Assembly: GCA_965215365.1 (NCBI GenBank)
Contig: CBDCDS010000003.1
Location: 384,001-448,000 of the forward strand
Direction of reading: 5' to 3'
DNA length: 64,000 bases
Origin: Gammaproteobacteria bacterium
GTDB taxonomy: Bacteria; Pseudomonadota; Gammaproteobacteria; Eutrophobiales; Eutrophobiaceae
Shown: positions 3,214 through 30,058 of the stretch, piece by piece
Numbering within the stretch: the first letter of the stretch is position 1
Layout of the letters: the number at the start of each line of letters is the position of its first letter
Made by a program: the position numbers and the translations under genes
Notes under the pieces: generated by a model
Database searches by the model: none
The model's input: only the letters and a program-made list of their open reading frames with translations
What the model was told of the DNA's origin: nothing

Positions 3214-3236
3214 AACAGCAGGCAAACTCTTATTTT

Positions 3237-3305: not shown

Positions 3306-3308
3306 GTT

Positions 3309-3392: not shown

Positions 3393-3393
3393 G

Positions 3394-11621: not shown

Positions 11622-11628
11622 GGTGGCC

Positions 11629-11679: not shown

Positions 11680-11760
11680 ATAACCCATAATGGGTCGCAG
11701 TAGCGTCAGGCGACGCGGCGGCGGCCTTGATTACCACTTCCTTTACGGATAGCTAAAGGC

Positions 11761-14277
11761 ATGGATTTGATGAACGGAGAACCCGTTAACACCTATCATG
11801 GCGCGTTCAGGCCCTGTCACGGGTTTGTGCTGTCCTATAGCGGCTCCCTGCTCGGCGCCATTGAGATCGATGGCATCGACCCGGACGGCATGTCGCAACA
11901 GGATTTGCAGGCTTTTTCCATCGTCCTCAGGAACCTGCTGAATATCCTGCCCCAGTCTATAGTTCTGCAGCAGTATTACGTGCATTACCGTGATCTGAAG
12001 GTGGCATTTGCCGCACGGCAGAACCCGGTCTGCAATGCGCTGAACCGCTACCGGGAACGGCACCTGAACGGGCTGCGTCTGGCCGGCGCCCGCTGCGTGC
12101 TGTTCGTTGAGATGTTTCCCGAACGTCAGGACGAAGCCAGCCTCATGCTGTTCCTGCGCCACTTGTACCGCAGCCGGCGCCACGCGCAGTCCAGGGACTA
12201 TGTGCGGCGTTTTATCCTGTATGGCCGGGCCCGCAGCGTTTCCGCCGCCGCCCTGGCCAAGCTGGCGCCGGCGCTGGCAACCCGGATCGGCGACATTATC
12301 AATTATTGCAACGGCTTGTTCGGTGCCCGGCAACTGGATCTGGACGAGACCTACCGGGTCATGAAATTCCTGGCGACGCTGGAAGTGAGCTACCTGGATA
12401 GCGACCTGCGCTGCCCGCAGTTTCTCGATACCGATCTGAGCGACGGGCAGGTGACACCGGTGACCCGCAACGGCATGGATTTGTTGCGCCTGCAGAACCG
12501 CCACAATACCTATACGCGCGTGTTGTCGGTAAAGCAATTCAATTTTGACCGGTTCACACCGGGACTGTTTGCCCGGGGACCGATCAAGGCACCGGGCAAC
12601 TACGTACTGACTACCCGTTACAAGGGTATGAGTGAGGCATCCCGGAGCCTGTTCTTCTTCAACCGCAAGAAAGAGCTGGAGCGGGAGACGCTGAGCTTTG
12701 CCGACTTCATCAAGGGTCTCGACAACAGCCGCGCACAGCCGCGCGAGTTGCAGGTGTTCCGACCGTCACTGATACGGAAATTCCAGGAGCTCGACGAGGC
12801 CGCGTCCCTGCAGGACAACCTGGGATTGGTCGCCACCCACGCAGTGGTGTTCGACACGGATGTGAAGGAACTAGAGCAGACCACCGCACGCGTGCAAGCG
12901 GCCCTGCAACAGAACCAGCTCAGCATCCTGTGGGAGACGGTGGCGCAAACGGATGTGTTCTTCGACCTGCAACCCTGCGCCGACCATCACGGCCGCTTTT
13001 TCCGGGATATTCCCCTGAACACCTCACAGTTTTCCACCTTGTCGCTGTTCCACAAGGCGGCCCAGGGGGCAACAACGGTGGCCGACTTAGGTAACGAGGA
13101 AGCGCAATACGTATTCACATCCGCAGATGCCTCACCGTATTATTTTTCGCCGTTTTGCGGCGGACGCGGCTTCCTGATCGGGGTCGGGCCGGTGCGCAGC
13201 GGCAAGTCTTTCCTGCGCACCTGCATCGGCATCCACTGGCTCAAGTATGGCGGGTTCTATCGCGCCATTGATATCGATCCCGGCTCCGAACCCATCGCCC
13301 ATGCGTTTGGCGCGGATGCCGGCATCGTGCGCTTTGGCGCCGGGCCGGCGCGCGGTTTTAACCTGTTCTCCCAGGCGCAAGGGCCCGACGACACCCACTT
13401 CATTGCGCACCTGAACCGGCAGCTGGTAGCGATGATCAAGAGCAACGACTCGGCGGAATTGCGCCAACTGTCTGGCGCCGAGCAACTGGCGCTGGACCGG
13501 GCCGTGCGCCAGGTGTTGAGATTGCCATGCGCACTGCAAACGCTGACGACCCTGGTCAAGCACTGTCCGGCAGCGGTGCAGCAGAAACTGGCGCGTATGA
13601 CCGGCGCCGGACCGTACGCGCCGCTGTTCGACGCGCAACACGATGCCATCGGCAACCCGGACCGGAAGGTGGCGGTGTACAATCTGGCCGACCTCAGAGA
13701 CGATGCCGTCGCCAAGCCGTTGGTGATGGCAGAGATTGCCTACCGGGTATTGCGTTTTTATGAAAACCCGGCGCGGCGCACCTGCCCGAAGTGGCTGGAT
13801 GTGGATGAATGCCACCATATCCTGGCCGATCCGGAGCTGACCCGCACCCTGTTGCTGGAGCGGGTGCGCACCTGGGGCAAGATGCTGGCCGGTATCGGCT
13901 TATGGACGCAGTCCGGCATCGAACTCGGCAACATGGAGAATTGGGAAGCGCTGCGCAGCGCCGCCTCGACCTTTATCTTCACCGCCGACCCGGAACTGAA
14001 CAAGGACACCTACCGCAACATCTTCAACCTGACGGAGGGGGAGCTGGACACCATCCGCGGCATGATCCCGAAACGGGAGTTTTACCTGATCCAGCGCGAC
14101 CTGAACGTCTCCAAGAAGTGCACCCTGTCGGTGGAGCCGGAACAGTATGTGTTATCGACCTCCAGTCCGGCGGAACAGACCTTGTATTTTGACAATGTTG
14201 AACGTTACGGTTTTGAGGTCGGGGTCAAAAAGACGGTGGCAGCGCTGGGCCGACAAGAGCAGGCGGAACAGCAATGA
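11761..14277 (+). CDS. virB4: VirB4-family T4SS ATPase
   Basis: 838 aa; Walker A GPVRSGKS, Walker B LDVDECH, RTWGK....GLWTQS motif; followed by VirB5/6/8/9/10-like genes. Confidence 0.88.
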   Translation: MDLMNGEPVNTYHGAFRPCHGFVLSYSGSLLGAIEIDGIDPDGMSQQDLQAFSIVLRNLLNILPQSIVLQQYYVHYRDLKVAFAARQNPVCNALNRYRERHLNGLRLAGARCVLFVEMFPERQDEASLMLFLRHLYRSRRHAQSRDYVRRFILYGRARSVSAAALAKLAPALATRIGDIINYCNGLFGARQLDLDETYRVMKFLATLEVSYLDSDLRCPQFLDTDLSDGQVTPVTRNGMDLLRLQNRHNTYTRVLSVKQFNFDRFTPGLFARGPIKAPGNYVLTTRYKGMSEASRSLFFFNRKKELERETLSFADFIKGLDNSRAQPRELQVFRPSLIRKFQELDEAASLQDNLGLVATHAVVFDTDVKELEQTTARVQAALQQNQLSILWETVAQTDVFFDLQPCADHHGRFFRDIPLNTSQFSTLSLFHKAAQGATTVADLGNEEAQYVFTSADASPYYFSPFCGGRGFLIGVGPVRSGKSFLRTCIGIHWLKYGGFYRAIDIDPGSEPIAHAFGADAGIVRFGAGPARGFNLFSQAQGPDDTHFIAHLNRQLVAMIKSNDSAELRQLSGAEQLALDRAVRQVLRLPCALQTLTTLVKHCPAAVQQKLARMTGAGPYAPLFDAQHDAIGNPDRKVAVYNLADLRDDAVAKPLVMAEIAYRVLRFYENPARRTCPKWLDVDECHHILADPELTRTLLLERVRTWGKMLAGIGLWTQSGIELGNMENWEALRSAASTFIFTADPELNKDTYRNIFNLTEGELDTIRGMIPKREFYLIQRDLNVSKKCTLSVEPEQYVLSTSSPAEQTLYFDNVERYGFEVGVKKTVAALGRQEQAEQQ

Positions 14278-15122
14278 GAACACTATTCCTTATACCGGCG
14301 CTCTGCTGCTGGCTCAGCAGTGCGGTGCACGGTGCCGGTATCCCGACCGTCGATGTCGGCGTGATTGCCCAGCAGCTGCGCGCCTACCAGCAGTTATTAC
14401 GGGATTTTGAAATCCAGTTACAGCAGGTCGGGCTGGATGCCGAGCAGTTGACCCTGCTCAACCGCCAGTTCGGCCAGACCCTGAAGGAATACGATGACTA
14501 CCTGCAACAGGTGCGGGGCTTGCAACGGGTGATCTCGCGCAAGGACTGGGAGGGGCTGTTCCAGGCCTTGAAAAATCAATACGGCATCAGCCCTTATGCT
14601 CGCATCGTGACGCAGCGCGCCTCGGGTCATGCCGGCAGGGATGCCATCGACGCCGAGGTGCAGCGGCTCTACCCGCTCCCGGCCGCGGTTGAGCAGGTGC
14701 GGGGACAGCTTGCCGCCAGCGGTCTTGACCCGGAACCCTGGGCGCGGCAAGCGCAGCGCCAGCGGGCGCGCTACGAGGCCTACCGGGACCAGCTGGAACT
14801 GGCCCGGGACGGCAACCGGGAGCTGCTGCAACGCTATCGCAACGTCAGGGTCACCAGGGATAATTTCAACTTAGGCGACAAGAGCGACTTGAACGCATTG
14901 CAGACCGGCGTGACCGCCGACTTCCATATTATTGATGAACTGCAAGCCCTGAACAAAATCCACAACCAGCAGTTGCTGCATGCCAACCACGGCTATATCC
15001 AGGCGCTGTCGGCGGCGGAGGCGCAGCGCCGGGCCGAGGCTGAGCGCCTGCAACAGGTAGCCGACCGGACCCGGACGGCGCGTGCATTCCGCTGGCGCGA
15101 CCTGCGGTTACAAGAGCGCTGA
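14274..15122 (+). CDS. virB5: VirB5/TrbJ-like T4SS protein
   Basis: Signal peptide followed by AGIPTVD; Gln-rich helical body; position before VirB6. Confidence 0.75.
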   Translation: MRTLFLIPALCCWLSSAVHGAGIPTVDVGVIAQQLRAYQQLLRDFEIQLQQVGLDAEQLTLLNRQFGQTLKEYDDYLQQVRGLQRVISRKDWEGLFQALKNQYGISPYARIVTQRASGHAGRDAIDAEVQRLYPLPAAVEQVRGQLAASGLDPEPWARQAQRQRARYEAYRDQLELARDGNRELLQRYRNVRVTRDNFNLGDKSDLNALQTGVTADFHIIDELQALNKIHNQQLLHANHGYIQALSAAEAQRRAEAERLQQVADRTRTARAFRWRDLRLQER

Positions 15123-16105
15123 TGAAAAAACGTTATCTCACAGCCTTGCTCATATCGCTCCCGGCGCCGGCGGCGCGGGCGGCGCCGATCGACCCCGCCA
15201 GCTTTCTGGGAGAGTTCTTCAATCAGGCCAGCCGCCTGACCGACGCGTTGATCGGCGTCTCCACGGAGCTGTACCGTTTCTCCGAGCTGGAATGGACGGT
15301 GTTTACCGTGTTTGCCCTGGTCATCGTGCTGATCAAGTGGACTATCGGCGCCGCGGCAGTCAAGGATGTGCTGTTCGTGGTGCTGATGATCCTCATTGCC
15401 CAGTCGCTGTTGCAATCCTACGACTATGTGCTGGCGCTGCTCTGGGAAATTGCCTCGGTGTTATCCGATGATATCAACCTGAACACCTATCAGGCGTTGA
15501 ATCTGGGCGCCACGGGTATCGATTCAACCGGAGTCTTCCTGCTGGACATGCTCAACCACGTTATGGAACGATTTACCTTTGAACCGGCGCCTGAGAATGC
15601 CGGCTTTTTCTCCATATTCAGCAATTTCGCCGTGAACCTGCGCGATTCAGTGTTCCTGTTCCTGTTTATCGTGGTGCTGTTTGCCGTGTTTGCCGTGTCC
15701 TGGATCATCTCGGTAATCGGTATCTGGAGCCTGATGCTCGGTAAAGTGTTGGGGCCGGTATTCATCCCATTCCTGATTTTCAAGCGCGCCAGCGGTTATT
15801 TCGACAACTGGCTCAACTTCATGCTGGGCGGGGTGGTGTATTTCGTCGTTGCGCAGCTCAACATTGCCCTGACCACCCTGGTCATGCTGGAGCTGTTCGA
15901 TTCGACCATCATGGCCGGCAAGGTCCTGAGCCTGACCCCGGATGACCTGTTACGCTTGTTCAGCTATACCGGCCTGCTGCTGGTGGCGGTGTATGCCATG
16001 TTTCGCACCGACCGGGTCGTCAGCGACCTGATCCAGGGCGGTGTCAGCGCCTCCGGGGCTATCGGCCAGGCCGCCGCGATGATGTCCACAAGGCTGGTGA
16101 GGTGA
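15122..16105 (+). CDS. virB6: VirB6-family polytopic membrane protein
   Basis: Multiple TM helices; LGPVFIPFLIF....YFDNWL signature. Confidence 0.85.
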   Translation: MKKRYLTALLISLPAPAARAAPIDPASFLGEFFNQASRLTDALIGVSTELYRFSELEWTVFTVFALVIVLIKWTIGAAAVKDVLFVVLMILIAQSLLQSYDYVLALLWEIASVLSDDINLNTYQALNLGATGIDSTGVFLLDMLNHVMERFTFEPAPENAGFFSIFSNFAVNLRDSVFLFLFIVVLFAVFAVSWIISVIGIWSLMLGKVLGPVFIPFLIFKRASGYFDNWLNFMLGGVVYFVVAQLNIALTTLVMLELFDSTIMAGKVLSLTPDDLLRLFSYTGLLLVAVYAMFRTDRVVSDLIQGGVSASGAIGQAAAMMSTRLVR

Positions 16106-16109
16106 CACC

Positions 16110-16841
16110 ATGAACCACACCATCGACAACATCCCTGAGGGACTGGCCCGACGCCTGAACCCGGACAATATTCCGGGCCTGATAGTCACCAATAACCGAC
16201 TGTTGATCACTAATCTGGTGCTGTTGCTGGCGTTCCTGTGCGCGCTGGGCTACGGCATCGCCATGACAGTCATGGCGCAACATAATGAAAAACTCATCTA
16301 CGTCAAACTGGCGCCGGACGGCACCTGGTTTATCGATACCCGCTTCGCGCACAAAAACGAGATAGATTTTTTCCCCGCCACTATCGATCACCTGCTCAGC
16401 AACTACGTCAGGCGCCGCTACCGCGAGGACCCGGCCACCATCAGGAATGACTACGGCTACGCGCTGGCACTGATGGACTCCGGGCTGGCACAGCACTTTA
16501 AGTCACCCACCGGTTATGACGCCGCCGGCAAAGCGGCCCGGGTCAGGGCTTGCGCGGGGTGCGATATCAGGGAGGTGGAGGTCCGCAACATCTACCACTT
16601 CGACATGGATCGGCTCGCCGACGGCGACCCCGATGAGACCAGTTATCGCACCAACGTGTATATCAACGAATTGCTGCGCGCCAGCGCAGACCACAGTGTG
16701 CTGAGCACCCGCAGGGCCATTGTCACGCTGCGCTGGCGCCTGACACCCAGAGCGGCCCTGTCCAGAGACCGGAATGTGCTGATGGCCAACCCCATTGGCT
16801 TGAAAATTATTGAGGAGAAGGCGCTTGATGACCCGGCTTAA
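16110..16841 (+). CDS. virB8: VirB8/TrbF-family protein
   Basis: Single TM helix, NYVRRRY, C-terminal NPIGLKI motif. Confidence 0.85.
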   Translation: MNHTIDNIPEGLARRLNPDNIPGLIVTNNRLLITNLVLLLAFLCALGYGIAMTVMAQHNEKLIYVKLAPDGTWFIDTRFAHKNEIDFFPATIDHLLSNYVRRRYREDPATIRNDYGYALALMDSGLAQHFKSPTGYDAAGKAARVRACAGCDIREVEVRNIYHFDMDRLADGDPDETSYRTNVYINELLRASADHSVLSTRRAIVTLRWRLTPRAALSRDRNVLMANPIGLKIIEEKALDDPA

Positions 16842-17667
16842 CCTAGATAAACCGGAGCGCATTGTCGTTCTGGCAATGCTGTGCGCGGTGTTATCGATAC
16901 CCGTGTCTGCCGCCGGCGAATCCTGCCGTATCGTCAAGCATGAGCCGCACAAGTTCGTGCGCATCAAGTCCCGGTTGCACCACGGCACACATATCGAGCT
17001 GCCGGAACTGCTGGTCGCGCGCCCGGTCACGGGCAACCGCGACCTGTGGGATGTGGAGGGTGATAACAAACATATCTTTGTCAAACCCAACGACGCCGAC
17101 ACCCGCGAAGGCGGCAGCACCACCGTCACCGCGGTGTCGCACAGCAACCGCTCCTACCATTTCCTGGTGGAACGCTCGACAGACGAGTTTGACCTGTGCG
17201 TAGTGATAACGCATGACGGCGAATTCCTGCCGCAAGGTTCGTTCAGCGGTTTTGCCCGGCACGCCGAGCAGCAGCGCACCCTGTACCAGCAGCAACTGGA
17301 CACGCTGCAACTGCGCCTAGATGAAGCGCAGCAGGCCGGCACCGAGCAGCTTGGCGCAGCACTGGACGAGTACCGCCTGCAACTGTTCACCGGCTACCAG
17401 TGGCACGGCGGCCGTTCCCCTTACGGGAAGGAGCTGGTCAGTGATGTCTATGACGACGGCCGCTTTACCTACATCCGGGTGCGCCACAATCGGGCCGGCG
17501 CCATGTCGCTATTTGCCGACAATAACGGCCAGGAACAGTTCATCGACTACCGCTATGACGCAGACAGGCGGATTTATGTCGTAACCGGGGTGTTCAACCG
17601 CATCCACATGAAGGCGGACGAGAAAACGCGCATCGTCATTACCCGCCGGGGCGCCGCGCACGGGTGA
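16828..17667 (+). CDS. virB9: VirB9/TrbG-family protein
   Basis: Signal peptide, HIFVKP, and VYDDGRFTYI signature. Confidence 0.88.
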   Translation: MTRLNLDKPERIVVLAMLCAVLSIPVSAAGESCRIVKHEPHKFVRIKSRLHHGTHIELPELLVARPVTGNRDLWDVEGDNKHIFVKPNDADTREGGSTTVTAVSHSNRSYHFLVERSTDEFDLCVVITHDGEFLPQGSFSGFARHAEQQRTLYQQQLDTLQLRLDEAQQAGTEQLGAALDEYRLQLFTGYQWHGGRSPYGKELVSDVYDDGRFTYIRVRHNRAGAMSLFADNNGQEQFIDYRYDADRRIYVVTGVFNRIHMKADEKTRIVITRRGAAHG

Positions 17668-17682
17668 GAAGAGACGTAACCC

Positions 17683-22778: not shown

Positions 22779-22779
22779 G

Positions 22780-23586
22780 ATGAAATACCTGATTTTCCTG
22801 CTGTTCATAGTCGGCGGCGCGCAGCCGGTCAGCGCCGAAGCAGACCAACCTGAGGCTGGCATCGAGCCGGCAACGCAGCCGGCGCCAGTGGGACAACCGG
22901 CGGTGCCGCCGCCGACCGCCCCTATCGACGCGCCGACTGCACCGGCAGCCGCCGCTGTTGACGGGCCGACCACAGCGGCGACCGGCGGCACCGACGGGCC
23001 GACCACACCGGCAGCCGCAAACCCGGCCACCTCGCCGCCGCCGGCTGCGGCAGACGGCTCCTGCCGGCATTGCCAGCCGGCTGAACAACTGGTGGTGGAC
23101 CTCATTTTCTACAAGCAAATCCTGGACCTGCTGGGGGAGATAGACCGGCAGCGGGCACAGATCAATACCGGCTTGTTGCGCGCCACCCACGCCGAACTGG
23201 TCAAGCTCAGACCCGAGCTGGCGGCCTTGTTAAAAACAGACAAAGCGCCGGTGCCAGCCCCGGCTCCGGTCGCGGCAAAGCCGCGCCCTGCCAAAAAGCC
23301 GGCGCCACCCAAGCCCAGGCCTAAGCCGGCGTCGCAAGGCATAGACGGTCTGGTAGTCGGGCATGTCAACGGCGCCAACCGGGAGTTGGGGCTCGCGGCC
23401 AGCGTGGTGCTAGTCAGCAACGGCCGGCCTCGTTCCTTGAATCTGGACGGCGTCATCGAGCATAACCGGCGCAAGTTCCGGATCATCAAGGTGGATTATG
23501 TCGAAGACCGGCGCGCCGGCAACCGGCATGAGGTGCATCTGCAGGACCAGGTCAGTAAGCAGGTTTACGTGGTGCCGTGGCAATGA
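22780..23586 (+). CDS. PilP-like periplasmic protein
   Basis: Signal peptide, Pro/Ala-rich linkers, small C-terminal beta domain; sits between the PilO-like gene and the ATPase. Confidence 0.45.
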   Translation: MKYLIFLLFIVGGAQPVSAEADQPEAGIEPATQPAPVGQPAVPPPTAPIDAPTAPAAAAVDGPTTAATGGTDGPTTPAAANPATSPPPAAADGSCRHCQPAEQLVVDLIFYKQILDLLGEIDRQRAQINTGLLRATHAELVKLRPELAALLKTDKAPVPAPAPVAAKPRPAKKPAPPKPRPKPASQGIDGLVVGHVNGANRELGLAASVVLVSNGRPRSLNLDGVIEHNRRKFRIIKVDYVEDRRAGNRHEVHLQDQVSKQVYVVPWQ

Positions 23587-23630
23587 TCCCTGGGCAATAA
23601 TCCCTAGGCAATAATCCTTGGGCAATGATC
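23581..23630 (+). repeat. About 3.5 tandem copies of a 14 bp unit (CAATRATCCYTRGG)
   Basis: caatgatccctggg-caataatccctagg-caataatccttggg-caatgatc. Confidence 0.9.
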
Positions 23631-23631
23631 T

Positions 23632-25239
23632 ATGTTTAAGACCCTCAAAAAACAGCATAAGGCGCCGCCGTTACCGTCTTTTGCACAGGCGCAGGCGGAG
23701 AATAGGGTGTGCGAGACGCCGCTGATCACCAAGTACGAGGAACTGGAAAACATCCAGCCTACGACCAACGCCGATATCCTCACCGAGACCCGGAAAATGA
23801 ACGGCGCCTGCCCCGGCTTTATTGCCGAGGACCAGCAGCTGTATTGTATTGACCGCAGCGACCTGAACAGACACGAGGCACTGGCGCTGAACCAGTTGAT
23901 CAACCTGGGCCGGGACGCATTGCAGCAGGAGCCGGTGATCCGCCAAACCACCCGCTCGGTATTCGAATCCTGGATGAACAGGAACCAGGAACTGTCCCTG
24001 CAACAGCAAACCCGGGAAAGCTCCAATCAGGTCAACGAGTTGCTGGTGCAGGCCATTAACAACCAGGCCACGGATATCCATCTGGAAATCAAGCATAACA
24101 GGACTACCGTCTATCAACGCATCTATGGCCAGCTGGCAACCAGCCAGTCATTCGACCAGAGCCAGGGTATCAAGATCATCGCCGCGATCTGGAATATTTA
24201 CGTGAACCAGCCGTTCAGCAACGGCGATGTGGCCAAGGACGGGCGCTTTAATTTCGATTACAACGGGCAGAAATGGTTGTGCCGGGTGTCCTACGGGTAT
24301 TCCAAGGTGACCGACGAGCGCAGTCTGGCGATCCGCCTGCGGGACATGAAATACATCCCCGAGCTCAGTGCCCTGGGCTACCACGACACCCAACTGCAAA
24401 CCCTGAAACAGGTGGCCGCCAACAAAGGCATCACCTTGATCATCGGTGCGGTCAACTCCGGCAAGTCCACCACTCAGACTGCCATTATGAAAACCCGACC
24501 GGCGCTGGAGAAAAACCTGGAGATCTCCGACCAGATCGAGGTGGAACTGGACAACTTTGTGCAAATCCAGTTGCCGATCGAAGGCACTGATGACATTATC
24601 CGGGACAACAAGGAACGGCTGCGGCGTATCTCCACCCGCCACGATGTCGATTTCATCGCCATCAACGAAATCCGCGACAAGGAAACCGCGGTCATGGCTT
24701 CCTCCATGATGTTGCAGGGTACCACGGGCATCGCCTCCATCCACGGTTCCGGCTGGGTGGACGCCATCAACCGGCTGGTATCGAAGGCCGACCTCGGCAT
24801 CAGCCCCGACATTCTGTTTTCCGAATCCTTTTTAAGCCTGATCATCGTCCAGTCCCTCATCGGCGTGCTCTGCGATCGGTGCAAACTGGCACAACATTCC
24901 GACCCGTTCTGGCAGGACTATTACCGCGCCGGGTTCGGCGCCGCCGGCCAATATATCCGCTTTCAAAACAGGTACGGTTGCAGCACCTGCCGGCATACCG
25001 GTATCGGCAGTCTTACCCTGGTGGCCGAGTGCATCCCGATCATCGAGGGTAACAGGCACTTACTGAAAGATACCACCAATCCGCAGGCCATGCGCGACTG
25101 GATGCAGGCCAACGGCGTCCTGAACATCCACCAGCACGCCTGCTCGAAGATACTCAACGGCGAGCTGGACCCGTTACTCACCCAGCGCAAGATAGGCAAT
25201 TTCAACAAAGGGAACCTGTACGATGCCTGGCATAACTGA
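23632..25239 (+). CDS. pilQ: PilQ/GspE-family pilus assembly ATPase
   Basis: ATDIHLE, Walker A GAVNSGKST, NEIRD, SIH, and two CxxC pairs (CDRC, CSTC). Confidence 0.85.
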   Translation: MFKTLKKQHKAPPLPSFAQAQAENRVCETPLITKYEELENIQPTTNADILTETRKMNGACPGFIAEDQQLYCIDRSDLNRHEALALNQLINLGRDALQQEPVIRQTTRSVFESWMNRNQELSLQQQTRESSNQVNELLVQAINNQATDIHLEIKHNRTTVYQRIYGQLATSQSFDQSQGIKIIAAIWNIYVNQPFSNGDVAKDGRFNFDYNGQKWLCRVSYGYSKVTDERSLAIRLRDMKYIPELSALGYHDTQLQTLKQVAANKGITLIIGAVNSGKSTTQTAIMKTRPALEKNLEISDQIEVELDNFVQIQLPIEGTDDIIRDNKERLRRISTRHDVDFIAINEIRDKETAVMASSMMLQGTTGIASIHGSGWVDAINRLVSKADLGISPDILFSESFLSLIIVQSLIGVLCDRCKLAQHSDPFWQDYYRAGFGAAGQYIRFQNRYGCSTCRHTGIGSLTLVAECIPIIEGNRHLLKDTTNPQAMRDWMQANGVLNIHQHACSKILNGELDPLLTQRKIGNFNKGNLYDAWHN

Positions 25240-26257
25240 ACTGCTGCGGCTGCACCCGCTCAAATCGCTCTACTTGCGCACCCTGCTGTTCAACAGCGAG
25301 ACCCGCGCGTATTTCTACGCCACCTTGCGGGAATATCTGAGCAGCCATTTCCCTCTGCTCGGGATCTTCGATCAGCTGCAGCAGCACGGCAATAACGCGG
25401 CCATTCTGGCAATCGCCCGGCTCAGCAAACGCGCGATTCGCAATAACCAACCATTCGCCACCCATTACCACGCGACCGGGCTGTTCACCGAGCAGGAAAG
25501 CAAACTGTTGATGCTGGGAGAACGCTACGACTGCATGGATACCGTTACCGGGTTGTTACTGGACCAGGATGAACAGGCGCCGGCCCTGCTGCAAATCCTC
25601 TCTGGCAGCGTCCAGTGGATCTTTATGAGCCTGATCATGACCGCCATGTCCATTTACACGCTGCCGTACCTGAAGAATTATACCAGTGGCTATACGCTGT
25701 TCTTTGATTACGTCAACTTTGCCAAATCTTGGTGGCCGCAGCTGGCGGCGCTGGCGCTGATTGCATTCGTCCTCTACCACTGGTGCATGTTGCGCCTGAC
25801 CGGGCCGTTGCGCAAGGCGTTGATGGCCTGTGGCTGTTTCCAGGTTCATGCCATGTTGACTGAGCGGCGTTTCCTGAAAATCGGCGGCGCCCTGATCGCC
25901 ACGCGCCTGCCGCCCGCCGAGTACCTGCGCCTGATGCAAACCACGTTTTCCCGGCAGCGGTTACTGGAGCAGGCGCTACAGCACAGCAGGACGCGCCTGA
26001 AAGAGGCCTCCCTGTTGCAAGTACTGGGAGACATCCTGTCGCCATATACCTACACCCAGGTCCTGGCTTGTACGCCCAACCAGACCCAGGACGAGATCGC
26101 CAGAGGCTTCAACATGGCGGCCCGCATGCTGGATCTGAAACTGAAGCGCGTCATCAAGGCCTGGCAGAGTTTCTACACGATGCTGTTTTTGTCCGGCAGC
26201 ATCGCCATCACCATCCCGTTTGCCCTGGTGTCCATGGGTATGGGAATTCAACTGTAA
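25223..26257 (+). CDS. pilR: PilR/GspF-like inner-membrane platform protein
   Basis: RAYFY..L...L N-terminus, F..QE..LL..GE motif, three hydrophobic segments; follows the ATPase. Confidence 0.7.
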   Translation: MPGITELLRLHPLKSLYLRTLLFNSETRAYFYATLREYLSSHFPLLGIFDQLQQHGNNAAILAIARLSKRAIRNNQPFATHYHATGLFTEQESKLLMLGERYDCMDTVTGLLLDQDEQAPALLQILSGSVQWIFMSLIMTAMSIYTLPYLKNYTSGYTLFFDYVNFAKSWWPQLAALALIAFVLYHWCMLRLTGPLRKALMACGCFQVHAMLTERRFLKIGGALIATRLPPAEYLRLMQTTFSRQRLLEQALQHSRTRLKEASLLQVLGDILSPYTYTQVLACTPNQTQDEIARGFNMAARMLDLKLKRVIKAWQSFYTMLFLSGSIAITIPFALVSMGMGIQL

Positions 26258-26271
26258 CGGAGGAAAAAACC

Positions 26272-26715
26272 ATGAATCAAGTCGCAATCGTGTTCGGGCT
26301 TATTATCACCAGCGTCGTCGGTTTCGGCGCCTACACTGCGCTGGCGCCACTGGTCACCCAGTCAGAGAACCGCAATATGGAGGCGGAAATCGCCAATATC
26401 ATCAACGCCGCCTCAGAGTATCGCTGGGTGAATCGTAACGACAGCGGTCTGGCAAGCGCCACCTTTACGGCCTTGGTAACTAACGGTTATCTGGATTCCG
26501 AGTTGTATGAGGACGGTGACGATGAAAGCGTGATTGAAACGGACATCACCGCCTCGCCCGGCGCCGGAACTCCGACTGTCACCTACGATGCCGGAGATGC
26601 GCAAAGTTGCAACTGGTTGCTGCAACGGGCGAAGGCCGGCAAGTGGGCCAAGGTGGATGCTGAGTCGGCCACCACCGCCTGCTCCACCAGCGTCATCACC
26701 GTAGTCATCAAATAA
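26272..26715 (+). CDS. Putative major type IVb pilin-like protein without a prepilin leader
   Basis: Strong RBS GGAGGA; N-terminal hydrophobic helix continuing into an amphipathic helix; LVTNGYL motif; C-terminal Cys pair; pilS position. Confidence 0.65.
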   Translation: MNQVAIVFGLIITSVVGFGAYTALAPLVTQSENRNMEAEIANIINAASEYRWVNRNDSGLASATFTALVTNGYLDSELYEDGDDESVIETDITASPGAGTPTVTYDAGDAQSCNWLLQRAKAGKWAKVDAESATTACSTSVITVVIK

Positions 26716-26718
26716 GCC

Positions 26719-27171
26719 ATGCCGGCCGTCTTCTATCAGGTGGCGCTGTCGCTGGCCGTTGTTGCGGGGTTGGTGACGTTGCTGCAACCGCACCGGCACA
26801 CACAGGCCCGGATGCAGACCTTGCAGGCCGTGCAGCGCGCCGGTATTGATTATATCGGCGCGCACTGCCAGGCCCTGCCGGGGAGCATCACCCAGGCTAT
26901 GTTGCAGGCTGCGGGCAACCTGCCCGACCACTTCGACAGCCACGGCGCCACGTTTACCTGGCGCACGGCAGAGCATCCGGTAGTCACTGTCAACGTCAGC
27001 GGCGCGGCCGACTATCTGGCCTTCCTGCCCCGGCACACGCTGGGCGGGTTCGAGGCGGACGGCGCTTACACCTTCATCCCGCACTATGACGCCACCGGAT
27101 TGCGCGCCGCCAACAACGGCTACAACCTGTTTGCTTATGCCGGCAACGACTTTTCCTGTAACCCATTATGA
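26719..27171 (+). CDS. Pilin-like/PilM-like protein
   Basis: N-terminal hydrophobic helix, AGIDYI..HC...LQAAGNLP..F pattern, Cys pair. Confidence 0.5.
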   Translation: MPAVFYQVALSLAVVAGLVTLLQPHRHTQARMQTLQAVQRAGIDYIGAHCQALPGSITQAMLQAAGNLPDHFDSHGATFTWRTAEHPVVTVNVSGAADYLAFLPRHTLGGFEADGAYTFIPHYDATGLRAANNGYNLFAYAGNDFSCNPL

Positions 27172-27818
27172 ATGTCCTGCCCACTGTTTACTTCATGCTG
27201 GTGTTCAGCCTGCTATCGCTGGGACTGAGTTTCCGCATCGAAGAACGCGCCCGTTCGTTAGTCCCGGATCGGGTGCAGAACGCCATCGTGCAACTGGCCC
27301 TGGCGCAACATCGCTACATCTCCGACCCGGACAACCCCGCGTCCGGCAGCTATGCTGGCGATCTTGCCACGTTACGCGACTACCTGCCGATCTGGGAAGC
27401 CGACCCGGGCTTTGCCGCGCCGGTGTTCGCGTTTCCCGCAAGCGGCGGCTTTACCATCCGCTACCGTGCCGCCGACAACGCCGAAGCCGGACGCATTGCC
27501 GCGCGCCTAGGCGCGGTGGCGCAGGTCAACGCCAACACGGTCACCGTCGGCTTCGCCGACCCCACCGATCTAGCCTTGCTGGATACCTTTATCAGCCGGG
27601 ATGATGCCGAAGACGAATTCGTCAAACGAGCCGGGGACCGGATGAGCGGCACCTTGAGTTTCAACAGCAGTATTGGCGCCGCCATCGACCTGAACCAGAA
27701 TACCCTGACCGATGTATTACGCCTGAGCGCGCGCAACCCCGGCGCGACCGGCACGGTGGAAGCAGACATCATCATCGGCACCACCGCCACCTTCAACGAC
27801 ATCCTCATCAACCCCTGA
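27168..27818 (+). CDS. PilV N-terminal-like minor pilin
   Basis: Hydrophobic N-terminus, AQHRYI helix, YLP; FVKRAGDRMSGTL...IDLNQN motif like PilV constant regions and fibre proteins. Confidence 0.55.
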   Translation: MNVLPTVYFMLVFSLLSLGLSFRIEERARSLVPDRVQNAIVQLALAQHRYISDPDNPASGSYAGDLATLRDYLPIWEADPGFAAPVFAFPASGGFTIRYRAADNAEAGRIAARLGAVAQVNANTVTVGFADPTDLALLDTFISRDDAEDEFVKRAGDRMSGTLSFNSSIGAAIDLNQNTLTDVLRLSARNPGATGTVEADIIIGTTATFNDILINP

Positions 27819-27843
27819 TCGCTCAACAAGAAGGAATTTGAAC

Positions 27844-29475
27844 ATGAAATGTCCAGGCAAATTATTCACTCTCAGCAAACTGCTGCTGCTCGCCATTTTG
27901 CTCTGCCAGCCGGCCGGCGCGCAGACTATCAGCGACACTGACAAGCGCATCAATGCGCATGGCGACTATGGCTATTGGCAGGCCGGCCAGCCGGACGTCA
28001 TGATCCTGTGGCCGCAGGACCGGCAGAATATCGTTAAACGTTTTAGCGGCAACGCGCAACACCCCTACCCGTACCGCTTGTGGGTGGACCCCGGCCGCGC
28101 CGGCGGCTTCCCGGTGGTGTTAAAAAACGCATCGACGTTCAATAACTTTCTGCAACACATCAAGGCCAACGCCGACAAGAACTGGTGCCAGCTCGCGGAA
28201 ACCTGGAGCCACTGGCAGGGCAACCCGCCCAGCACTTGTGGCACTCACAGGTATGGCCAACGACGTACCTGCACCGTCGCCGCCAATGCGACAAAACCCT
28301 GCCCCGAACTGTGCCGACCCGCAGTGCAGACCCGCACTCGCAGCGTCGATAACGGCGCCTGCGCGCCGCCACCGCCGCCACCGCCGCCACCGCCGCCATC
28401 AACGCCGCCACCGCCGCCGGTGAAAAAATGCTCGACCAGCGCCTGGACGCCAAGCGCTGCCAGCGTCTGCGCCGGCAACAGCTTCACCCAGACCCGCACC
28501 CGGGCCGATTGCAGTACCGAACGGCGTGCCGCGAGCGGGAGTCAATCCTGTCCCCGCACCTGCACGGTCACAGCCTGGACACCCGGTCGGGATAGCGCCT
28601 GCAGCAGGGATAGTCTGACCCAGACCCGTACCCTTAGCGATTGCAGCACTGGCAGGCGCACAATCAATGGCACGCGCTCCTGTCCGTCCGGTTGCAGGGT
28701 CACGGCCTGGACGCCTGCCGCCAACACGGTATGCAGTGGCCAGTCATTGACCCAGACCCGCACTCTGAGTAACTGCGCCGGCGATAGCCGCGGCGCCACC
28801 GGTACCAAACACTGCCCGCCAAGTTGCCGCGCCAGTTCCTGGAGTCCGGCAACCAGTACGGTTTGCCGCGGCACGCCGTTTACCCAGACCCGTAAGCTGA
28901 GTGATTGCAGCAGCGCCAGCCGTAGCGCCAGCGGCAGCAAATCCTGTCCCAGAACCTGTGCGGCGAGCGGGTGGCAACCCTCTGCCAGTACCGTCTGCTC
29001 GGGGAGCAGCTTCACCCAGACCCGCACTCTGGAAAACTGTAATACGGCCAGTCGTAGCGCCAGCGGCGCCAAGTGCTGCGGCACAGCGACGACCTGGAGC
29101 CCTACGCCGGCCGGTCAGTGCGGCAGTTTCACCCAGTCCCGCACCAATGCCTGCGGCAAGACCGAGACGCGGGCGGCAAAAGGGACCGCTTCCTGGTGCG
29201 GGTGCACCTGGAGCCCTTATACCCCGGCCACCGGTACGGTGTGTACCGGCCGACCATTTACGCAAGTCAGTTTTTACTCCTGTAACGGCAGGAATAGCCA
29301 GTCGCAGACGCGCGCGGCTACGGGAACGAAGCGTTGTCAGAGCAGTTGTCCTGCAGGTAGCGGCTGGGGGGAATGGGCCATGGGAGTGTACTGTTGTAGA
29401 AGATATAACTCCGGAGGCGGTATATTATCATCATGGAGTTGTGTACCAGGAACCTCCACACTGCTTCATCCCTGA
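27844..29475 (+). CDS. Secreted Cys-rich adhesin with thrombospondin type-1-like repeats
   Basis: Sec signal (..PAGA-Q); WSHW..STCG..QRRTC unit; poly-Pro linker; seven 40-47 aa repeats C..W(T/S)P....C....(F/L)TQTR...C...R...G...C. Confidence 0.8.
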   Translation: MKCPGKLFTLSKLLLLAILLCQPAGAQTISDTDKRINAHGDYGYWQAGQPDVMILWPQDRQNIVKRFSGNAQHPYPYRLWVDPGRAGGFPVVLKNASTFNNFLQHIKANADKNWCQLAETWSHWQGNPPSTCGTHRYGQRRTCTVAANATKPCPELCRPAVQTRTRSVDNGACAPPPPPPPPPPPSTPPPPPVKKCSTSAWTPSAASVCAGNSFTQTRTRADCSTERRAASGSQSCPRTCTVTAWTPGRDSACSRDSLTQTRTLSDCSTGRRTINGTRSCPSGCRVTAWTPAANTVCSGQSLTQTRTLSNCAGDSRGATGTKHCPPSCRASSWSPATSTVCRGTPFTQTRKLSDCSSASRSASGSKSCPRTCAASGWQPSASTVCSGSSFTQTRTLENCNTASRSASGAKCCGTATTWSPTPAGQCGSFTQSRTNACGKTETRAAKGTASWCGCTWSPYTPATGTVCTGRPFTQVSFYSCNGRNSQSQTRAATGTKRCQSSCPAGSGWGEWAMGVYCCRRYNSGGGILSSWSCVPGTSTLLHP

Positions 29476-30025: not shown

Positions 30026-30058
30026 GAAAAGCCGATCTCCGGATCGGCTTTTCTTTTT
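30026..30058 (+). terminator. Rho-independent terminator closing the island
   Basis: GAAAAGCCGATC-tccg-GATCGGCTTTTC followed by a T-run. Confidence 0.9.

What the first reader, a model, noticed from the sequence alone, without database searches (positions are those of the whole stretch)
11761..29475. Single operon fusing a stripped VirB T4SS core with a type IVb pilus: candidate hybrid secretion/adhesion machine
Seen: 16 co-oriented genes with overlapping or very short junctions, in the order virB4-B5-B6-B8-B9-B10, PilL-like, secretin, PilO/P-like, GspE ATPase, GspF-like platform, three pilin-like genes and a Cys-rich adhesin. virB10 overlaps the pilL-like ORF (ATGA). All ORFs look intact. 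No VirB2, B3, B11, VirD4, relaxase, integrase or transposase is in the window, and the flanks are housekeeping genes (tadA/pncC, etfBA). Known: IncI plasmids and some ICEs carry both T4SS and T4bP, but with coupling protein and relaxase; Helicobacter ComB is a T4SS lacking VirB11/VirD4 that is used for DNA uptake. Inference: a domesticated, non-conjugative system in which the T4b pilus and its ATPase may replace the VirB2 pilus and VirB11, serving host attachment, protein delivery or DNA uptake.
Basis: partly seen in the sequence, partly recalled or inferred. Interest (0 to 1): 0.92.

Follow-up and report, generated by a model that had tools for sequence, protein, structure and literature searches.

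The report
Domesticated secretion system plus pilus operon
A genus of uncultured marine bacteria keeps in its chromosome a complete, plasmid-derived type IV secretion machine joined to a pilus gene set, but no DNA-transfer enzyme was found, so it has probably been repurposed for contact with a host or with neighbouring cells.

Summary
The operon is real but it is not a stripped T4SS. Pfam, NCBIfam or PDB profiles confirm VirB4, B6, B8, B9 and B10, a PilN-type secretin, a GspE/PilB-type ATPase and a PilC-type platform. A 17th conserved gene (29710-30003) was missed. The supposedly missing parts exist elsewhere in the same genome. virB3-virB2 lie beside recA. A virB11/virD4 pair lies among housekeeping genes on another contig. 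All are conserved across the genus, and in four basal species virB3-virB2 still sit directly before virB4. So the pilus does not replace VirB2 or VirB11. Six relaxase families gave no match in this genome. The operon is syntenic in 10 of 10 fetched species, and VirB4 is in 22 of 22. It sits at a fixed site after cinA, and dN/dS is 0.07-0.42. This fits a domesticated, probably non-conjugative system. Co-oriented VirB plus T4b-pilus clusters also occur on marine conjugative plasmids (pES100, an Aliivibrio contig), which are the likely source. Unusual features are pilin-like proteins without leader peptides, no pilus peptidase in the operon, and a pilus module swapped in some lineages. Function is inferred. 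Structure and complex predictions could not be run.

The parts
11761..14277 (+). virB4 ATPase (true start probably 11770)
   Evidence: TIGR00929 E 5.2e-43, below cut-off. PF03135 E 0.0016. Walker A residues G473-K479 are invariant in 15 clade members. Found in 22 of 22 other genus species at 74-92% identity.
14274..15122 (+). g02, secreted helical protein in the VirB5 position (name unproven)
   Evidence: No family and no PDB sequence hit. Homologues follow virB4 in T4SS-only relatives and plasmids.
15122..16105 (+). virB6
   Evidence: PF04610 E 7.5e-9.
16110..16841 (+). virB8
   Evidence: PF04335 E 2.7e-7.
16810..17667 (+). virB9 (start uncertain)
   Evidence: PF03524 E 5.1e-18. TIGR02781 E 3.1e-11.
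17683..19059 (+). virB10
   Evidence: PF03743 E 1.7e-23. NF038091 E 1.6e-19.
19056..20063 (+). g07, PilL-like lipoprotein: N-domain (~aa 56-149), variable linker, conserved C-domain (~aa 250-335)
   Evidence: A Cys-containing lipobox-like motif is conserved in the genus (alignment A7). The N-domain matches the ~120-aa proteins of pES100, Aliivibrio and Vibrio clusters by hhalign at 97.6%, E 3.5e-12. It also matches a 164-aa ORF after virB10 on an E. coli plasmid at E 2.6e-11. TIGR03748 PilL2 only E 0.1.
20017..21609 (+). secretin of the T4b (PilN) type, probably a lipoprotein (start uncertain)
   Evidence: TIGR02520 E 3.7e-14 and MshL TIGR02519 E 1.5e-12, both below cut-off. A signal sequence ending in Cys is seen in the translation. 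hhalign to plasmid secretins 97.4%.
21606..22778 (+). g09, bitopic membrane protein in the PilO/GspL position (unproven)
   Evidence: One central hydrophobic segment in the translation. No family or PDB hit. Conserved in L104, L105 and L106.
22780..23586 (+). g10, secreted Pro/Ala-rich protein in the PilP position (unproven)
   Evidence: Signal peptide and low-complexity linker in the translation. No family.
23632..25239 (+). GspE/PilB-type assembly ATPase
   Evidence: PF00437 E 5.8e-39. GspE TIGR02533 E 2e-40, PilB E 7.9e-31, VirB11 only E 5.6e-7. Walker A and four Cys are invariant in 16 clade members.
25223..26257 (+). platform protein (PilC/GspF/TcpE type)
   Evidence: The profile of 11 homologues hits PilC of 3jc8 at E 2.5e-6 and TcpE 4hhx at E 0.032. 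No Pfam hit.
26272..26715 (+). g13, PilS-like major pilin candidate without leader peptide
   Evidence: It has an N-terminal hydrophobic helix, an amphipathic helix and an invariant C-terminal Cys pair. Met1 aligns with position +1 of the L106 homologue, which has a short basic leader ending in Gly. Atlas feature neighbours carry PF08805 PilS, scores 0.91-0.93. 179 clusters; the 120 listed are 145-148 aa.
26719..27171 (+). g14, minor-pilin-like protein without leader
   Evidence: N-terminal hydrophobic helix; conserved in 10 relatives and in L104 and L105. No family.
27168..27818 (+). g15, minor-pilin-like protein without leader
   Evidence: N-terminal hydrophobic helix; 51-93% identical in 10 relatives. 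No family.
27838..29475 (+). g16, Sec-secreted Cys-rich repeat protein (variable accessory member)
   Evidence: 40 Cys and seven ~44-aa repeats. Found in 7 of 10 fetched relatives at 42-72% identity. Pfam gives only Galaxin_repeat at E 0.13.
29710..30003 (+). g17, conserved 97-aa Sec-secreted protein, last gene of the unit
   Evidence: 82-88% identical just downstream of g15 or g16 in L017, L018, L019, L021, L023 and L024. RNA-library contigs of runs X23 and X24 cover 29591-29991.
30026..30053 (+). terminator-like hairpin with T run
   Evidence: 12-pair stem followed by a T run. The scan as a whole was not above its shuffles.

Best explanation
This is the main operon of a complete VirB/VirD4-type (P-type) type IV secretion system. 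It was captured from a conjugative element together with that element's accessory type IVb-like pilus module, and it is now a fixed chromosomal trait of one genus of uncultured Gammaproteobacteria.

Shown: VirB4, B6, B8, B9 and B10 are followed without a break by a PilL-like lipoprotein, a PilN-type secretin, a GspE/PilB-type ATPase, a PilC-type platform, three pilin-like proteins and two Sec-secreted proteins. virB3-virB2 and virB11/virD4 lie at two other chromosomal sites. All are conserved under purifying selection. No relaxase was found.

Inferred: the T4SS no longer transfers its own DNA. It moves substrates, most likely proteins recruited by VirD4, into a contacted cell, either a host cell or a neighbouring microbe. 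The pilus-like module is a separate envelope machine. It makes a filament or pseudopilus that gives attachment, as accessory T4b pili do for conjugation in liquid, and/or exports the operon-encoded secreted proteins g16 and g17. The two machines are co-regulated by sharing one operon. They are not fused into a single channel.
For: Gene identities.

The T4SS is complete:
- The VirB11-like gene (TIGR02788 3.8e-54, TIGR03819 1.9e-67; Walker A present) and the VirD4/TraD-like gene (TIGR03743 5.3e-14; PF12696 1e-4) form a divergent pair among argH, asmA, mutY and pepA.
- VirB2-like (PF04956 3.4e-4) and VirB3-like (PF05101 9.9e-5, over cut-off) lie beside recA.

These genes are cognate to the operon:
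- Distant relatives of the same VirB4 clade carry B11-like genes (30-41% identity, 14 of 45 loci) and D4-like genes (29-36%, 6 of 45) next to virB4-B10.
- virB3-virB2 directly precede virB4 in G003, G010, G012 and G017.
- One inversion explains the split. In G003 cinA and recA are adjacent. In the derived species virB2 is followed by recA and cinA is followed by virB4.

Domestication:
- VirB4 is in 22 of 22 other genus species; VirD4-like and VirB11-like are each in 22 of 22.
- g01-g15 are in the same order in 10 of 10 fetched species, with no internal stops.
- dN/dS is 0.07-0.42.

No relaxase:
- PF03432, PF08751, PF03389, PF07514, PF01076 and PF02486 all gave no match in a 97.6%-complete genome.
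- tblastn with all ORFs of pES100 and of three other plasmid stretches gave no relaxase hit.
- PF03432 is in only 5 of 22 other genus species and never beside the T4SS loci.

Plasmid ancestry of the joint architecture:
- An Aliivibrio 54-kb contig has VirB2-like-B4-B5like-B6-B8-B9-B10, then PilL-N-like, TcpQ-like, secretin, ATPase, platform and pilins, then VirB11, VirD4 and TopoIII, all on one strand.
- pES100 is typed conjugative, MOBP, MPF_T and has the same pilus cluster upstream of virB2-virD4.
- A TARA scaffold with only 43% ATPase identity also has VirB10 directly before the secretin.

Accessory role of such pili: TP114 pilus mutants lose transfer in broth and in the gut but not on solid support (PMC9045228, passages read).

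Modularity of the two halves: in L104 the VirB half is almost identical to that of L019, while the pilus half is a long outside branch. L040 shows the same pattern.
Against: - No substrate or effector is identified. No expression of the operon body is shown: there was no RNA holder, and RNA contigs covered only the g17 region and the flank.
- The pilin-like proteins lack the class III leader and the acidic residue near position 5, so a true pilus may not form.
- g09, g10, g14 and g15 have no homology support at all.
- No fold could be predicted.
- Family hits for VirB4, VirB9, VirB10, VirB11, VirD4 and the secretin are all below NCBIfam cut-offs.
- Relaxases of untested families (for example MOBC or MOBB) or a very divergent one could be present, and the genome is not closed (3 contigs).
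- Tight operon linkage and the two-domain g07 would also fit physical coupling, which was not tested.
Confidence: 0.6

Rival explanations
1. True hybrid machine. The T4SS outer-membrane core and the pilus secretin are physically coupled, with the two-domain lipoprotein g07 as the bridge. The leaderless-pilin filament then serves as the extracellular conduit or targeting device of the T4SS.
For: virB10 and g07 overlap by 4 bases. The VirB10/secretin junction is kept in a lineage with only 43% ATPase identity. The g07 N-domain has homologues both right after virB10 on a pilus-less E. coli plasmid (E 2.6e-11) and at the head of the pES100 pilus cluster, so the domain occurs with either machine.
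Against: virB2, virB3 and virB11 are retained and conserved, so nothing is replaced. The pilus half has been exchanged for a divergent version while the VirB half stayed the same (L104, L040), which argues against tight co-adaptation. In pES100 the pilus cluster lies upstream of virB2, not after virB10. No binding test could be run.
Confidence: 0.12
2. It is still a mating-pair-formation system. It mobilises DNA in trans, for example mobilisable islands or plasmids that carry their own relaxase, with the pilus stabilising mating pairs in sea water or host tissue.
For: All close architectural relatives are on conjugative or plasmid-like elements. VirD4 is retained. PF03432 relaxase domains occur in 5 of 22 other genus species, six copies in G022.
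Against: Six families gave no relaxase in this genome. 17 of 22 other species lack PF03432. The genes are scattered among housekeeping genes at fixed sites. Genus-wide purifying selection is hard to explain by service to sporadic elements.
Confidence: 0.12
3. DNA uptake or DNA release machine, like Helicobacter ComB, the Neisseria gonococcal island or the archaeal Ced system, with the pilus capturing DNA.
For: The system lacks a relaxase. The split loci lie next to cinA and recA. A conjugation-derived DNA importer is known in archaea (PMC9905601, search listing and abstract only).
Against: By recalled knowledge ComB lacks VirB11 and VirD4, and both are kept here. The cinA and recA neighbourhood is explained by one inversion that broke an older cinA-recA pair, not by functional linkage. 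In basal species the operon is not next to either gene.
Confidence: 0.08
4. Interbacterial killing T4SS, as in Xanthomonadales.
For: It is a chromosomal, relaxase-less VirB/D4 system in a bacterium that lives in dense microbial communities. A relative's operon is present in a run labelled sponge metagenome (X12).
Against: No XVIPCD domain (PF20410) was found in the genome, but the control search rang nowhere, so this is weak. No toxin-immunity pairs were seen beside the loci.
Confidence: 0.05
5. Decaying remnant of an integrated conjugative element.
For: The relaxase is lost and the genes are scattered over three loci.
Against: All genes are intact in 10 of 10 relatives. dN/dS is 0.07-0.42. 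The system is genus-wide.
Confidence: 0.02

Closest known systems
pES100-type conjugative plasmids of Vibrionaceae and Shewanella, and the 54-kb Aliivibrio sp. contig (G042:C15)
   Same: A VirB-type T4SS and a T4b-pilus-like cluster lie on one strand. In the Aliivibrio contig the order virB4...virB10, PilL-N-like, secretin, ATPase, platform, pilins is the same as here, and its VirB4 belongs to the same clade (31% identity). 140 plasmids hold the pES100-type ATPase.
   Different: The plasmids carry virB11, virD4, topoisomerase III, MobC and a relaxase in the same element, and their pilins have basic leaders ending in Gly. Here there is no relaxase, the genes are chromosomal and split over three loci, and the pilins have no leader. 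Only g07N, the secretin and the ATPase are detectably homologous.
Thin T4b pili of IncI1 R64 and IncI2 TP114, and the PilL2-V2 pilus of PAPI-1/PFGI-1-class ICEs
   Same: The gene order is PilL, secretin PilN, PilO, PilP, ATPase PilQ, platform PilR, pilin PilS, then further pilins (order recalled). This is an accessory pilus encoded beside a conjugative T4SS. The TP114 pilus stabilises mating pairs (PMC9045228, passages read). For PAPI-1, PMC5297154 was seen in the search listing only.
   Different: No prepilin peptidase, lytic transglycosylase, shufflon or PilV-type adhesin was recognised here. PilN and PilL family scores are far below cut-off. No conjugation module is present.
Rickettsiales vir homologue (rvh) and other effector-translocating VirB/D4 systems
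   Same: A relaxase-less P-type T4SS is fixed in the chromosome of host-associated bacteria, with its genes scattered over several loci (PMC2653234, search listing and abstract only).
   Different: Those systems have no linked type IV pilus module. Here no effector is known and host association is only indicated.
Helicobacter pylori ComB DNA-uptake T4SS
   Same: A chromosomal VirB-derived system without a relaxase. NF038092 ComB10 hits VirB10 at E 3.2e-6, weaker than the generic VirB10 model.
   Different: By recalled knowledge ComB lacks VirB11 and VirD4. Both are present and conserved here.
T4b pili that also secrete a soluble factor (V. cholerae TCP/TcpF, ETEC CFA/III CofJ), and type II secretion
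   Same: A lipoprotein secretin, a GspE-like ATPase (best NCBIfam hit is GspE), a platform, and operon-encoded Sec-signal proteins (g16, g17) that could be exported. This parallel is recalled, not tested.
   Different: No homology of g16 or g17 to any known secreted factor. Leaderless pilin-like proteins.

Membership tests
P-type (VirB/D4, MPF_T) type IV secretion system | VirB4 ATPase | tested here: met
   TIGR00929 E 5.2e-43 over positions 21-762 of 792, below the curated cut-off. Walker A is invariant. It is the only VirB4 in the genome.
P-type (VirB/D4, MPF_T) type IV secretion system | Inner-membrane and core components VirB6, VirB8, VirB9, VirB10 | tested here: met
   PF04610 7.5e-9, PF04335 2.7e-7, PF03524 5.1e-18 and PF03743 1.7e-23, all over the Pfam cut-offs.
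P-type (VirB/D4, MPF_T) type IV secretion system | VirB11 ATPase and VirD4 coupling protein | tested here: met
   They are outside the window at G000:C1:54283-55275(-) and 55348-57072(+). VirB11 3.8e-54, TraD 5.3e-14, PF12696 1e-4. Each is in 22 of 22 other genus species. Homologues are linked to virB4 in distant relatives.
P-type (VirB/D4, MPF_T) type IV secretion system | VirB2 pilin and VirB3 | tested here: met
   G000:C3:17587-17883(-) PF04956 E 3.4e-4, below cut-off. C3:17907-18227(-) PF05101 E 9.9e-5, over cut-off. Directly upstream of virB4 in 4 species.
P-type (VirB/D4, MPF_T) type IV secretion system | VirB5 tip protein; VirB1 transglycosylase; VirB7 lipoprotein | tested here: inconclusive
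   g02 stands in the VirB5 position but PF07996 gives E 3.7. VirB1 and VirB7 were not searched in the genome. The g07 N-domain follows virB10 as a lipoprotein, but no VirB7 family was tested.
Conjugative (self-transmissible) element | Relaxase | tested here: not met
   PF03432, PF08751, PF03389, PF07514, PF01076 and PF02486 gave no match in the own genome, which is 97.56% complete. tblastn with plasmid ORFs found none. MOBC, MOBB and other families were not tested.
Conjugative (self-transmissible) element | Integrase, oriT, patchy distribution, element borders | tested here: not met
   The locus is genus-wide at a fixed site after cinA. The flanks of all three loci are housekeeping genes. No tRNA lies in the window. 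oriT and integrases were not searched.
Type IVb pilus (R64 PilL-V / TCP / BFP kind) | Secretin, assembly ATPase and platform protein | tested here: met
   TIGR02520 PilN 3.7e-14. PF00437 5.8e-39 with an invariant four-Cys motif. PilC of 3jc8 at E 2.5e-6.
Type IVb pilus (R64 PilL-V / TCP / BFP kind) | Pilins with a class III signal peptide (Gly at -1, acidic residue near +5) | tested here: not met
   g13, g14 and g15 and their genus homologues begin directly with the hydrophobic helix. Only the distant L106 homologue keeps a short basic leader ending in Gly. The gene calls listed in public data are 145-148 aa (120 of 179 clusters shown). Pilins of the plasmid clusters do have such leaders.
Type IVb pilus (R64 PilL-V / TCP / BFP kind) | Pilin fold of the major subunit (PilS type) | tested here: inconclusive
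   Atlas feature neighbours of a homologue that is 80% identical carry PF08805 PilS, at scores 0.91-0.93. There was no PDB sequence hit. Fold prediction failed.
Type IVb pilus (R64 PilL-V / TCP / BFP kind) | Dedicated prepilin peptidase in the cluster | tested here: not met
   None of the operon's proteins matched Peptidase_A24 in the Pfam scans. The genome's single PF01478 match is at C3:491381-491710, about 77 kb from the operon.
Type IVb pilus (R64 PilL-V / TCP / BFP kind) | PilL, PilO and PilP accessory proteins | tested here: inconclusive
   The g07 N-domain is homologous to the first protein of the pES100 pilus cluster (hhalign 97.6%), but TIGR03748 gives only E 0.1. g09 and g10 have no detectable homology.
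ComB-type DNA-uptake T4SS | Absence of VirB11 and VirD4 (as recalled) | tested here: not met
   Both are present and conserved.

The most novel reading that the evidence does not exclude
A host- or neighbour-targeting apparatus of a new kind. A conjugation-derived T4SS and a peptidase-independent filament built from leaderless PilS-like pilins act as one unit in uncultured sponge-associated Gammaproteobacteria. The filament, decorated with or exporting the Cys-rich repeat protein g16 and the small protein g17, selects and holds the target cell. The lipoprotein g07 ties its secretin to the VirB9/VirB10 core. VirD4 feeds effectors through the T4SS. The exchangeable pilus half would then set target specificity.
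Probability: 0.15. Interest if true: 0.85.

Novelty: new variant of a known kind. Interest (0 to 1): 0.55.

Why it matters
Domesticated T4SSs such as those of Rickettsiales, Bartonella and Helicobacter are central to host interaction. Here the whole mating apparatus of a plasmid, including its accessory pilus, appears to have been kept as a core trait of a genus known only from metagenomes. A relative's operon is present in a run labelled sponge metagenome. That gives a concrete candidate for how such symbionts attach to and act on host or neighbouring cells.

The leaderless pilin-like proteins, if they do assemble, would be an exception to the rule that type IV filaments need a prepilin peptidase.

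A practical by-product concerns plasmid typing. The VirB4 clade also sits on 147 PLSDB plasmids of E. coli, Klebsiella, Pseudomonas and others. MOB-suite, as given by PLSDB, types 142 of them as mobilizable or non-mobilizable, so this T4SS clade may be under-recognised by typing tools.

Tried and rejected
- Structure prediction of g13 (A3) and g09 (A6). No fold or fold search was obtained.
- Complex prediction of VirB9 with the g07 N-domain was never accepted because the queue was full. There is no result.
- RNA evidence: no RNA holder was listed. In three small metatranscriptome contig sets nothing lay on 11635-29386. Only the 11001-11634 bin (an RTX repeat) and 29591-29991 were covered. This says nothing on expression of the operon.
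- PDB sequence-profile searches found nothing meaningful for g13, g02 and g09.
- A Pfam scan of all 7 g09 homologues found nothing meaningful. Relaxed Pfam scans of g02, g07, g09, g10 and g13-g17 also found nothing.
- My by-eye idea that the g07 C-domain is TcpQ-like was not supported. hhalign was below 50% against the TcpQ-like proteins of pES100, Aliivibrio and Vibrio. The same holds for g09, g10, g12 and g13-g15 against their positional counterparts.
- The resemblance of the g16 repeats to thrombospondin type 1 repeats is recalled only and has no Pfam support.
- Plasmid searches with the secretin and the ATPase found no close relative, all 30% identity or less. A Stenotrophomonas MOBP plasmid with a T4b cluster is only a distant parallel.
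- The XVIPCD search was negative but had no working positive control.
- The promoter and terminator scan was not above its shuffles.
- Rfam found only 6S RNA, elsewhere in the window.
- Literature: searches returned no paper describing a chromosomal relaxase-less VirB system joined to a T4b pilus operon. In one search none of the 12 papers listed contained 'type IVb pil'. Supplements are closed and subscription journals are not covered.

Full report
**Observation**

The window is G000:C3:384001-448000, from a 2.73-Mb genome in 3 contigs that is 97.56% complete. From 11761 to 29475 there are sixteen + strand ORFs joined by overlaps or gaps of at most 45 bp.

Pfam supports four T4SS proteins over their cut-offs:
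- VirB6, PF04610, E 7.5e-9
- VirB8, PF04335, E 2.7e-7
- VirB9, PF03524, E 5.1e-18
- VirB10, PF03743, E 1.7e-23

NCBIfam supports three more, all far below the curated cut-offs:
- VirB4, TIGR00929, E 5.2e-43
- a PilN-family T4b secretin, TIGR02520, E 3.7e-14
- a GspE/PilB-type ATPase, GspE E 2e-40; the VirB11 model scores only 5.6e-7

The ORF after the ATPase has no Pfam hit. A profile of 11 homologues matches PilC of the Myxococcus pilus machine (3jc8, E 2.5e-6) and TcpE (E 0.032), so it is a platform protein.

The 'VirB5', 'PilO' and 'PilP' labels could not be verified.

The last ORF has a Sec-type signal, 40 Cys and seven ~44-aa repeats.

**The unit is one gene longer than reported**

A 97-aa protein with a Sec signal (29710-30003) is followed by a strong hairpin with a T run (30026-30053). 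It is 82-88% identical just downstream of the operon in L017, L018, L019, L021, L023 and L024. In L018, L019 and L021 it follows g15 directly, because g16 is absent there. This makes g16 a variable accessory gene and g17 the conserved end of the unit.

Contigs from two RNA libraries cover 29591-29991 almost identically.

**The 'missing' T4SS genes exist elsewhere in the genome**

- On the 76-kb contig C1, a 331-aa VirB11-like ATPase (TIGR02788 3.8e-54, TIGR03819 1.9e-67, Walker A present) and a 575-aa VirD4/TraD-like protein (TIGR03743 5.3e-14, PF12696 1e-4, a GKG-type Walker A) are divergently transcribed between argH/asmA/mutY and pepA.
- At C3:17.6-18.2 kb, a 106-aa VirB3-like gene (PF05101 9.9e-5, over cut-off) and a 98-aa VirB2/TrbC-like gene (PF04956 3.4e-4) lie between a gshA-like gene and recA-recX-alaS, all on one strand.

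These genes belong to the same system, for three reasons.
1. VirD4-like and VirB11-like are each in 22 of 22 other species of the genus at 70-94% identity. VirB2-like is in 19 of 22. The three misses are fragmented assemblies of 220-510 contigs, 77-95% complete.
2. In G003, G010, G012 and G017, virB3-virB2 lie directly upstream of virB4.
3. In distant members of the same VirB4 clade, VirB11-like genes (30-41% identity, 14 of 45 loci) and VirD4-like genes (29-36%, 6 of 45 loci) lie beside virB4-virB10. These loci were limited to 10-kb flanks or contig ends.

**How the genes came apart**

In 15 of 20 virB2 loci (own included) recA follows virB2. In 4 of 20 virB4 follows virB2. In one (G001) neither lies within the 3.3 kb seen.

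cinA lies within 10 kb upstream of virB4 in 8 of 19 genus loci. In G003, where virB3-virB2-virB4 are still linked, cinA is directly followed by recA.

A single inversion with breakpoints between virB2 and virB4 and between cinA and recA would produce both new junctions. It would also explain the opposite strands of the two loci, which lie about 370 kb apart in this genome. This is an inference from the arrangements.

In this genome a 2149-aa fn3-repeat ORF and a 715-aa RTX-repeat ORF have also come to lie between cinA and virB4. Their G+C is 0.70-0.74, against 0.58 for the genome. They are not seen there in the relatives.

**Conservation and selection**

- VirB4 is in 22 of 22 other genus species at 74-92% identity. 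It is in 0 of 2 other genera of the family. In 1 of 16 other families sampled there is a hit, at only 24% identity.
- I fetched the locus from 10 of the 22 species, most of them single-contig assemblies. All 10 have g01-g15 in the same order, and 7 of 10 have g16.
- The apparent internal stops all lie at ORF edges. They show that the true starts of virB4 and g09 are a few codons downstream.
- Nei-Gojobori dN/dS for three genome pairs is 0.07-0.42 for every gene. The highest values are for g07 and g10.
- Six relaxase families are absent from the genome. tblastn with every ORF of 80 aa or more of pES100, the Aliivibrio contig and two other plasmid stretches finds no relaxase. PF03432 occurs in only 5 of 22 other species and never beside the T4SS loci.

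The system is therefore fixed, selected and apparently relaxase-less. It is not a decaying ICE.

**Where it comes from**

The VirB4 clade is narrow in the 5.8-billion-protein collection, with 53 clusters at E 1e-5 or better. Clade members run from 100% down to 33% identity, and the only further hits are two ordinary VirB4 proteins at 22-24%.

The clade still reaches many Proteobacteria. In species-representative genomes, 45 loci outside the genus include Rhizobacter, Desulfatitalea, Vibrio, Aliivibrio, Pantoea, Pseudomonas and a Pseudoduganella plasmid. It is also on 147 PLSDB plasmids at 32-36% identity. One example is an E. coli 30-kb plasmid with VirB4, B8, B9 and B10, a transglycosylase and TrbM.

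Most of these relatives have no pilus genes within reach. A 54-kb Aliivibrio contig does. Its genes run on one strand in this order:
- VirB2-like, VirB4, B5-like, B6, B8, B9, B10
- a 129-aa homologue of the g07 N-domain
- a TcpQ-like lipoprotein (PF10671)
- a secretin (E 2.8e-11 to my g08 profile)
- two unknown proteins
- a GspE-type ATPase, a platform, and pilins with basic leaders ending in Gly
- a trypsin-like protease
- VirB11 (E 9.4e-68), VirD4 and topoisomerase III

pES100 of A. fischeri ES114 is typed conjugative, MOBP, MPF_T. It carries the same pilus cluster upstream of virB2-virB11-virD4, MobC and a relaxase. 140 plasmids hold that ATPase: 107 Vibrio, 16 Aeromonas and 11 Shewanella.

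The joint VirB-plus-T4b-pilus architecture is therefore a plasmid trait. The known role of such pili is mating-pair stabilisation (TP114: PMC9045228, passages read).

**The pilus module is nevertheless its own deep lineage**

- Its ATPase clade falls from 92% to 39% identity over about 60 clusters, then drops to 31% or less for ordinary GspE/PilB proteins.
- At E 1e-60 or better it was found in none of 399 other genomes drawn evenly from the class. One genome was not scored.
- On plasmids nothing exceeds 30% identity.
- A metagenome scan found four loci. One holds the whole composite operon. One TARA scaffold, with 43% ATPase identity, has VirB10 directly before the secretin, then a g09 homologue, the ATPase, the platform and g13-g15. 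One locus starts at the secretin.
- hhalign links only the g07 N-domain, the secretin and the ATPase to the pES100-type cluster.

**Unusual points**

1. g13, g14 and g15 have the layout of pilins: a hydrophobic helix, an amphipathic helix and, in g13, an invariant C-terminal Cys pair. They have no leader peptide. Met1 of g13 aligns with position +1 of the L106 homologue, which still has a short basic leader ending in Gly. The conserved Gly17 and Pro26 align as well. Of the 179 related clusters, the 120 listed are 145-148 aa.
2. A stored homologue's nearest Atlas clusters carry the PilS family, with scores of 0.91-0.93. This is a lead only.
3. No prepilin peptidase is in the operon. The genome's one A24 peptidase match is about 77 kb away. 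Canonical prepilins do exist elsewhere in the genome.
4. In trees of the VirB half and the pilus half (12 taxa, quick IQ-TREE), 5 of 9 splits are shared. The main conflict is L104. Its VirB half is almost identical to that of L019, while its pilus half is a long branch outside the genus. L040 shows the same pattern: VirB4 77% but secretin 53%, g09 37% and g10 28%. The pilus module has therefore been exchanged as a block.

**Mechanism**

Shown: a complete set of P-type T4SS genes without a relaxase, a contiguous secretin/ATPase/platform/pilin-like module, and two Sec-signal proteins at the end. All are under purifying selection.

Inferred: the T4SS translocates VirD4-recruited substrates on contact. 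The pilus-like module provides attachment and/or exports g16 and g17, as some T4b pili and type II systems do (recalled). The two machines are co-expressed but physically separate.

I put this at 0.6. A physically coupled hybrid gets 0.12, trans-mobilisation of DNA 0.12, DNA uptake or release 0.08, interbacterial killing 0.05 and a decaying remnant 0.02.

**Habitat**

Record titles of the genus relatives read 'MAG: Gammaproteobacteria bacterium'. A 15.7-kb contig of a run labelled sponge metagenome covers 11632-26438 with about 10% differences, so a related species carries the operon there.

**What is left open**

No fold, complex or expression data could be obtained. No substrate is known. 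Several components have no homology support.

**Novelty**

This is a new variant of a known kind. It is a conjugation-derived T4SS together with its accessory T4b-type pilus, domesticated as a genus-wide chromosomal system, with leaderless pilin-like subunits. The literature searches found no description of such a system.

Noticed in passing
window 3277-11621: A 2149-aa fn3-repeat ORF (3277-9726) and a 715-aa RTX/PPC-domain ORF (9474-11621) overlap by 253 bases in different frames. Their G+C is 0.70-0.74, against 0.58 for the genome. They lie between cinA and virB4 only in this genome. They may be one frameshifted giant adhesin gene of foreign origin.
   Followed up: partly
window 29591-29991 (g17, 29710-30003): Contigs of two small metatranscriptome runs (X23, X24) match this stretch with one difference, while nothing else of the operon is covered. 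A weak hairpin at 29544-29560 precedes it, so g17 may have its own strong promoter.
   Followed up: partly
window 53685-53866: 6S RNA (RF00013, 87.5 bits, E 6e-16), the only Rfam match in the window.
   Followed up: no
L104 (MKWU01000390.1) and L040 (JAPOQU010000019.1): The VirB half is typical of the genus, but the pilus half is a much more divergent version (secretin 52-53%, g09 37%, g10 28-30%). This looks like block replacement of the pilus module within the genus.
   Followed up: partly
G000:C3:13-18 kb and window 1310-14277; L147 (G003): One inversion between virB2|virB4 and cinA|recA would explain why virB3-virB2 now precede recA and cinA precedes virB4. G003 keeps cinA-recA adjacent and virB3-virB2-virB4 linked.
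   Followed up: yes
PLSDB plasmids, e.g. NZ_CP045281.1 (L102): 147 plasmids of E. coli, Klebsiella, Enterobacter, Pseudomonas and others carry this divergent VirB4 clade together with VirB8, B9 and B10. MOB-suite, as given by PLSDB, types 92 as mobilizable, 50 as non-mobilizable and only 5 as conjugative. The T4SS clade may be under-detected by typing tools.
   Followed up: no
L109:11444-12289 (G000:C3:21444-22289, - strand): A 281-aa protein with a canonical prepilin leader (Gly, then Phe-Thr-Leu-Val-Glu) shows that the genome also has ordinary type IV pilins, in contrast with the leaderless g13-g15.
   Followed up: no
L105 (TARA scaffold) 294-1853: One 519-aa ORF matches both the VirB10 TrbI domain and the C-terminal domain of g07. 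This may be a VirB10-g07C fusion in that distant lineage.
   Followed up: no
G022:C1, six places: Six ORFs of 336-562 aa with a PF03432 relaxase-domain match are scattered in one genus member. This suggests a multicopy mobile element unrelated to the T4SS loci.
   Followed up: no
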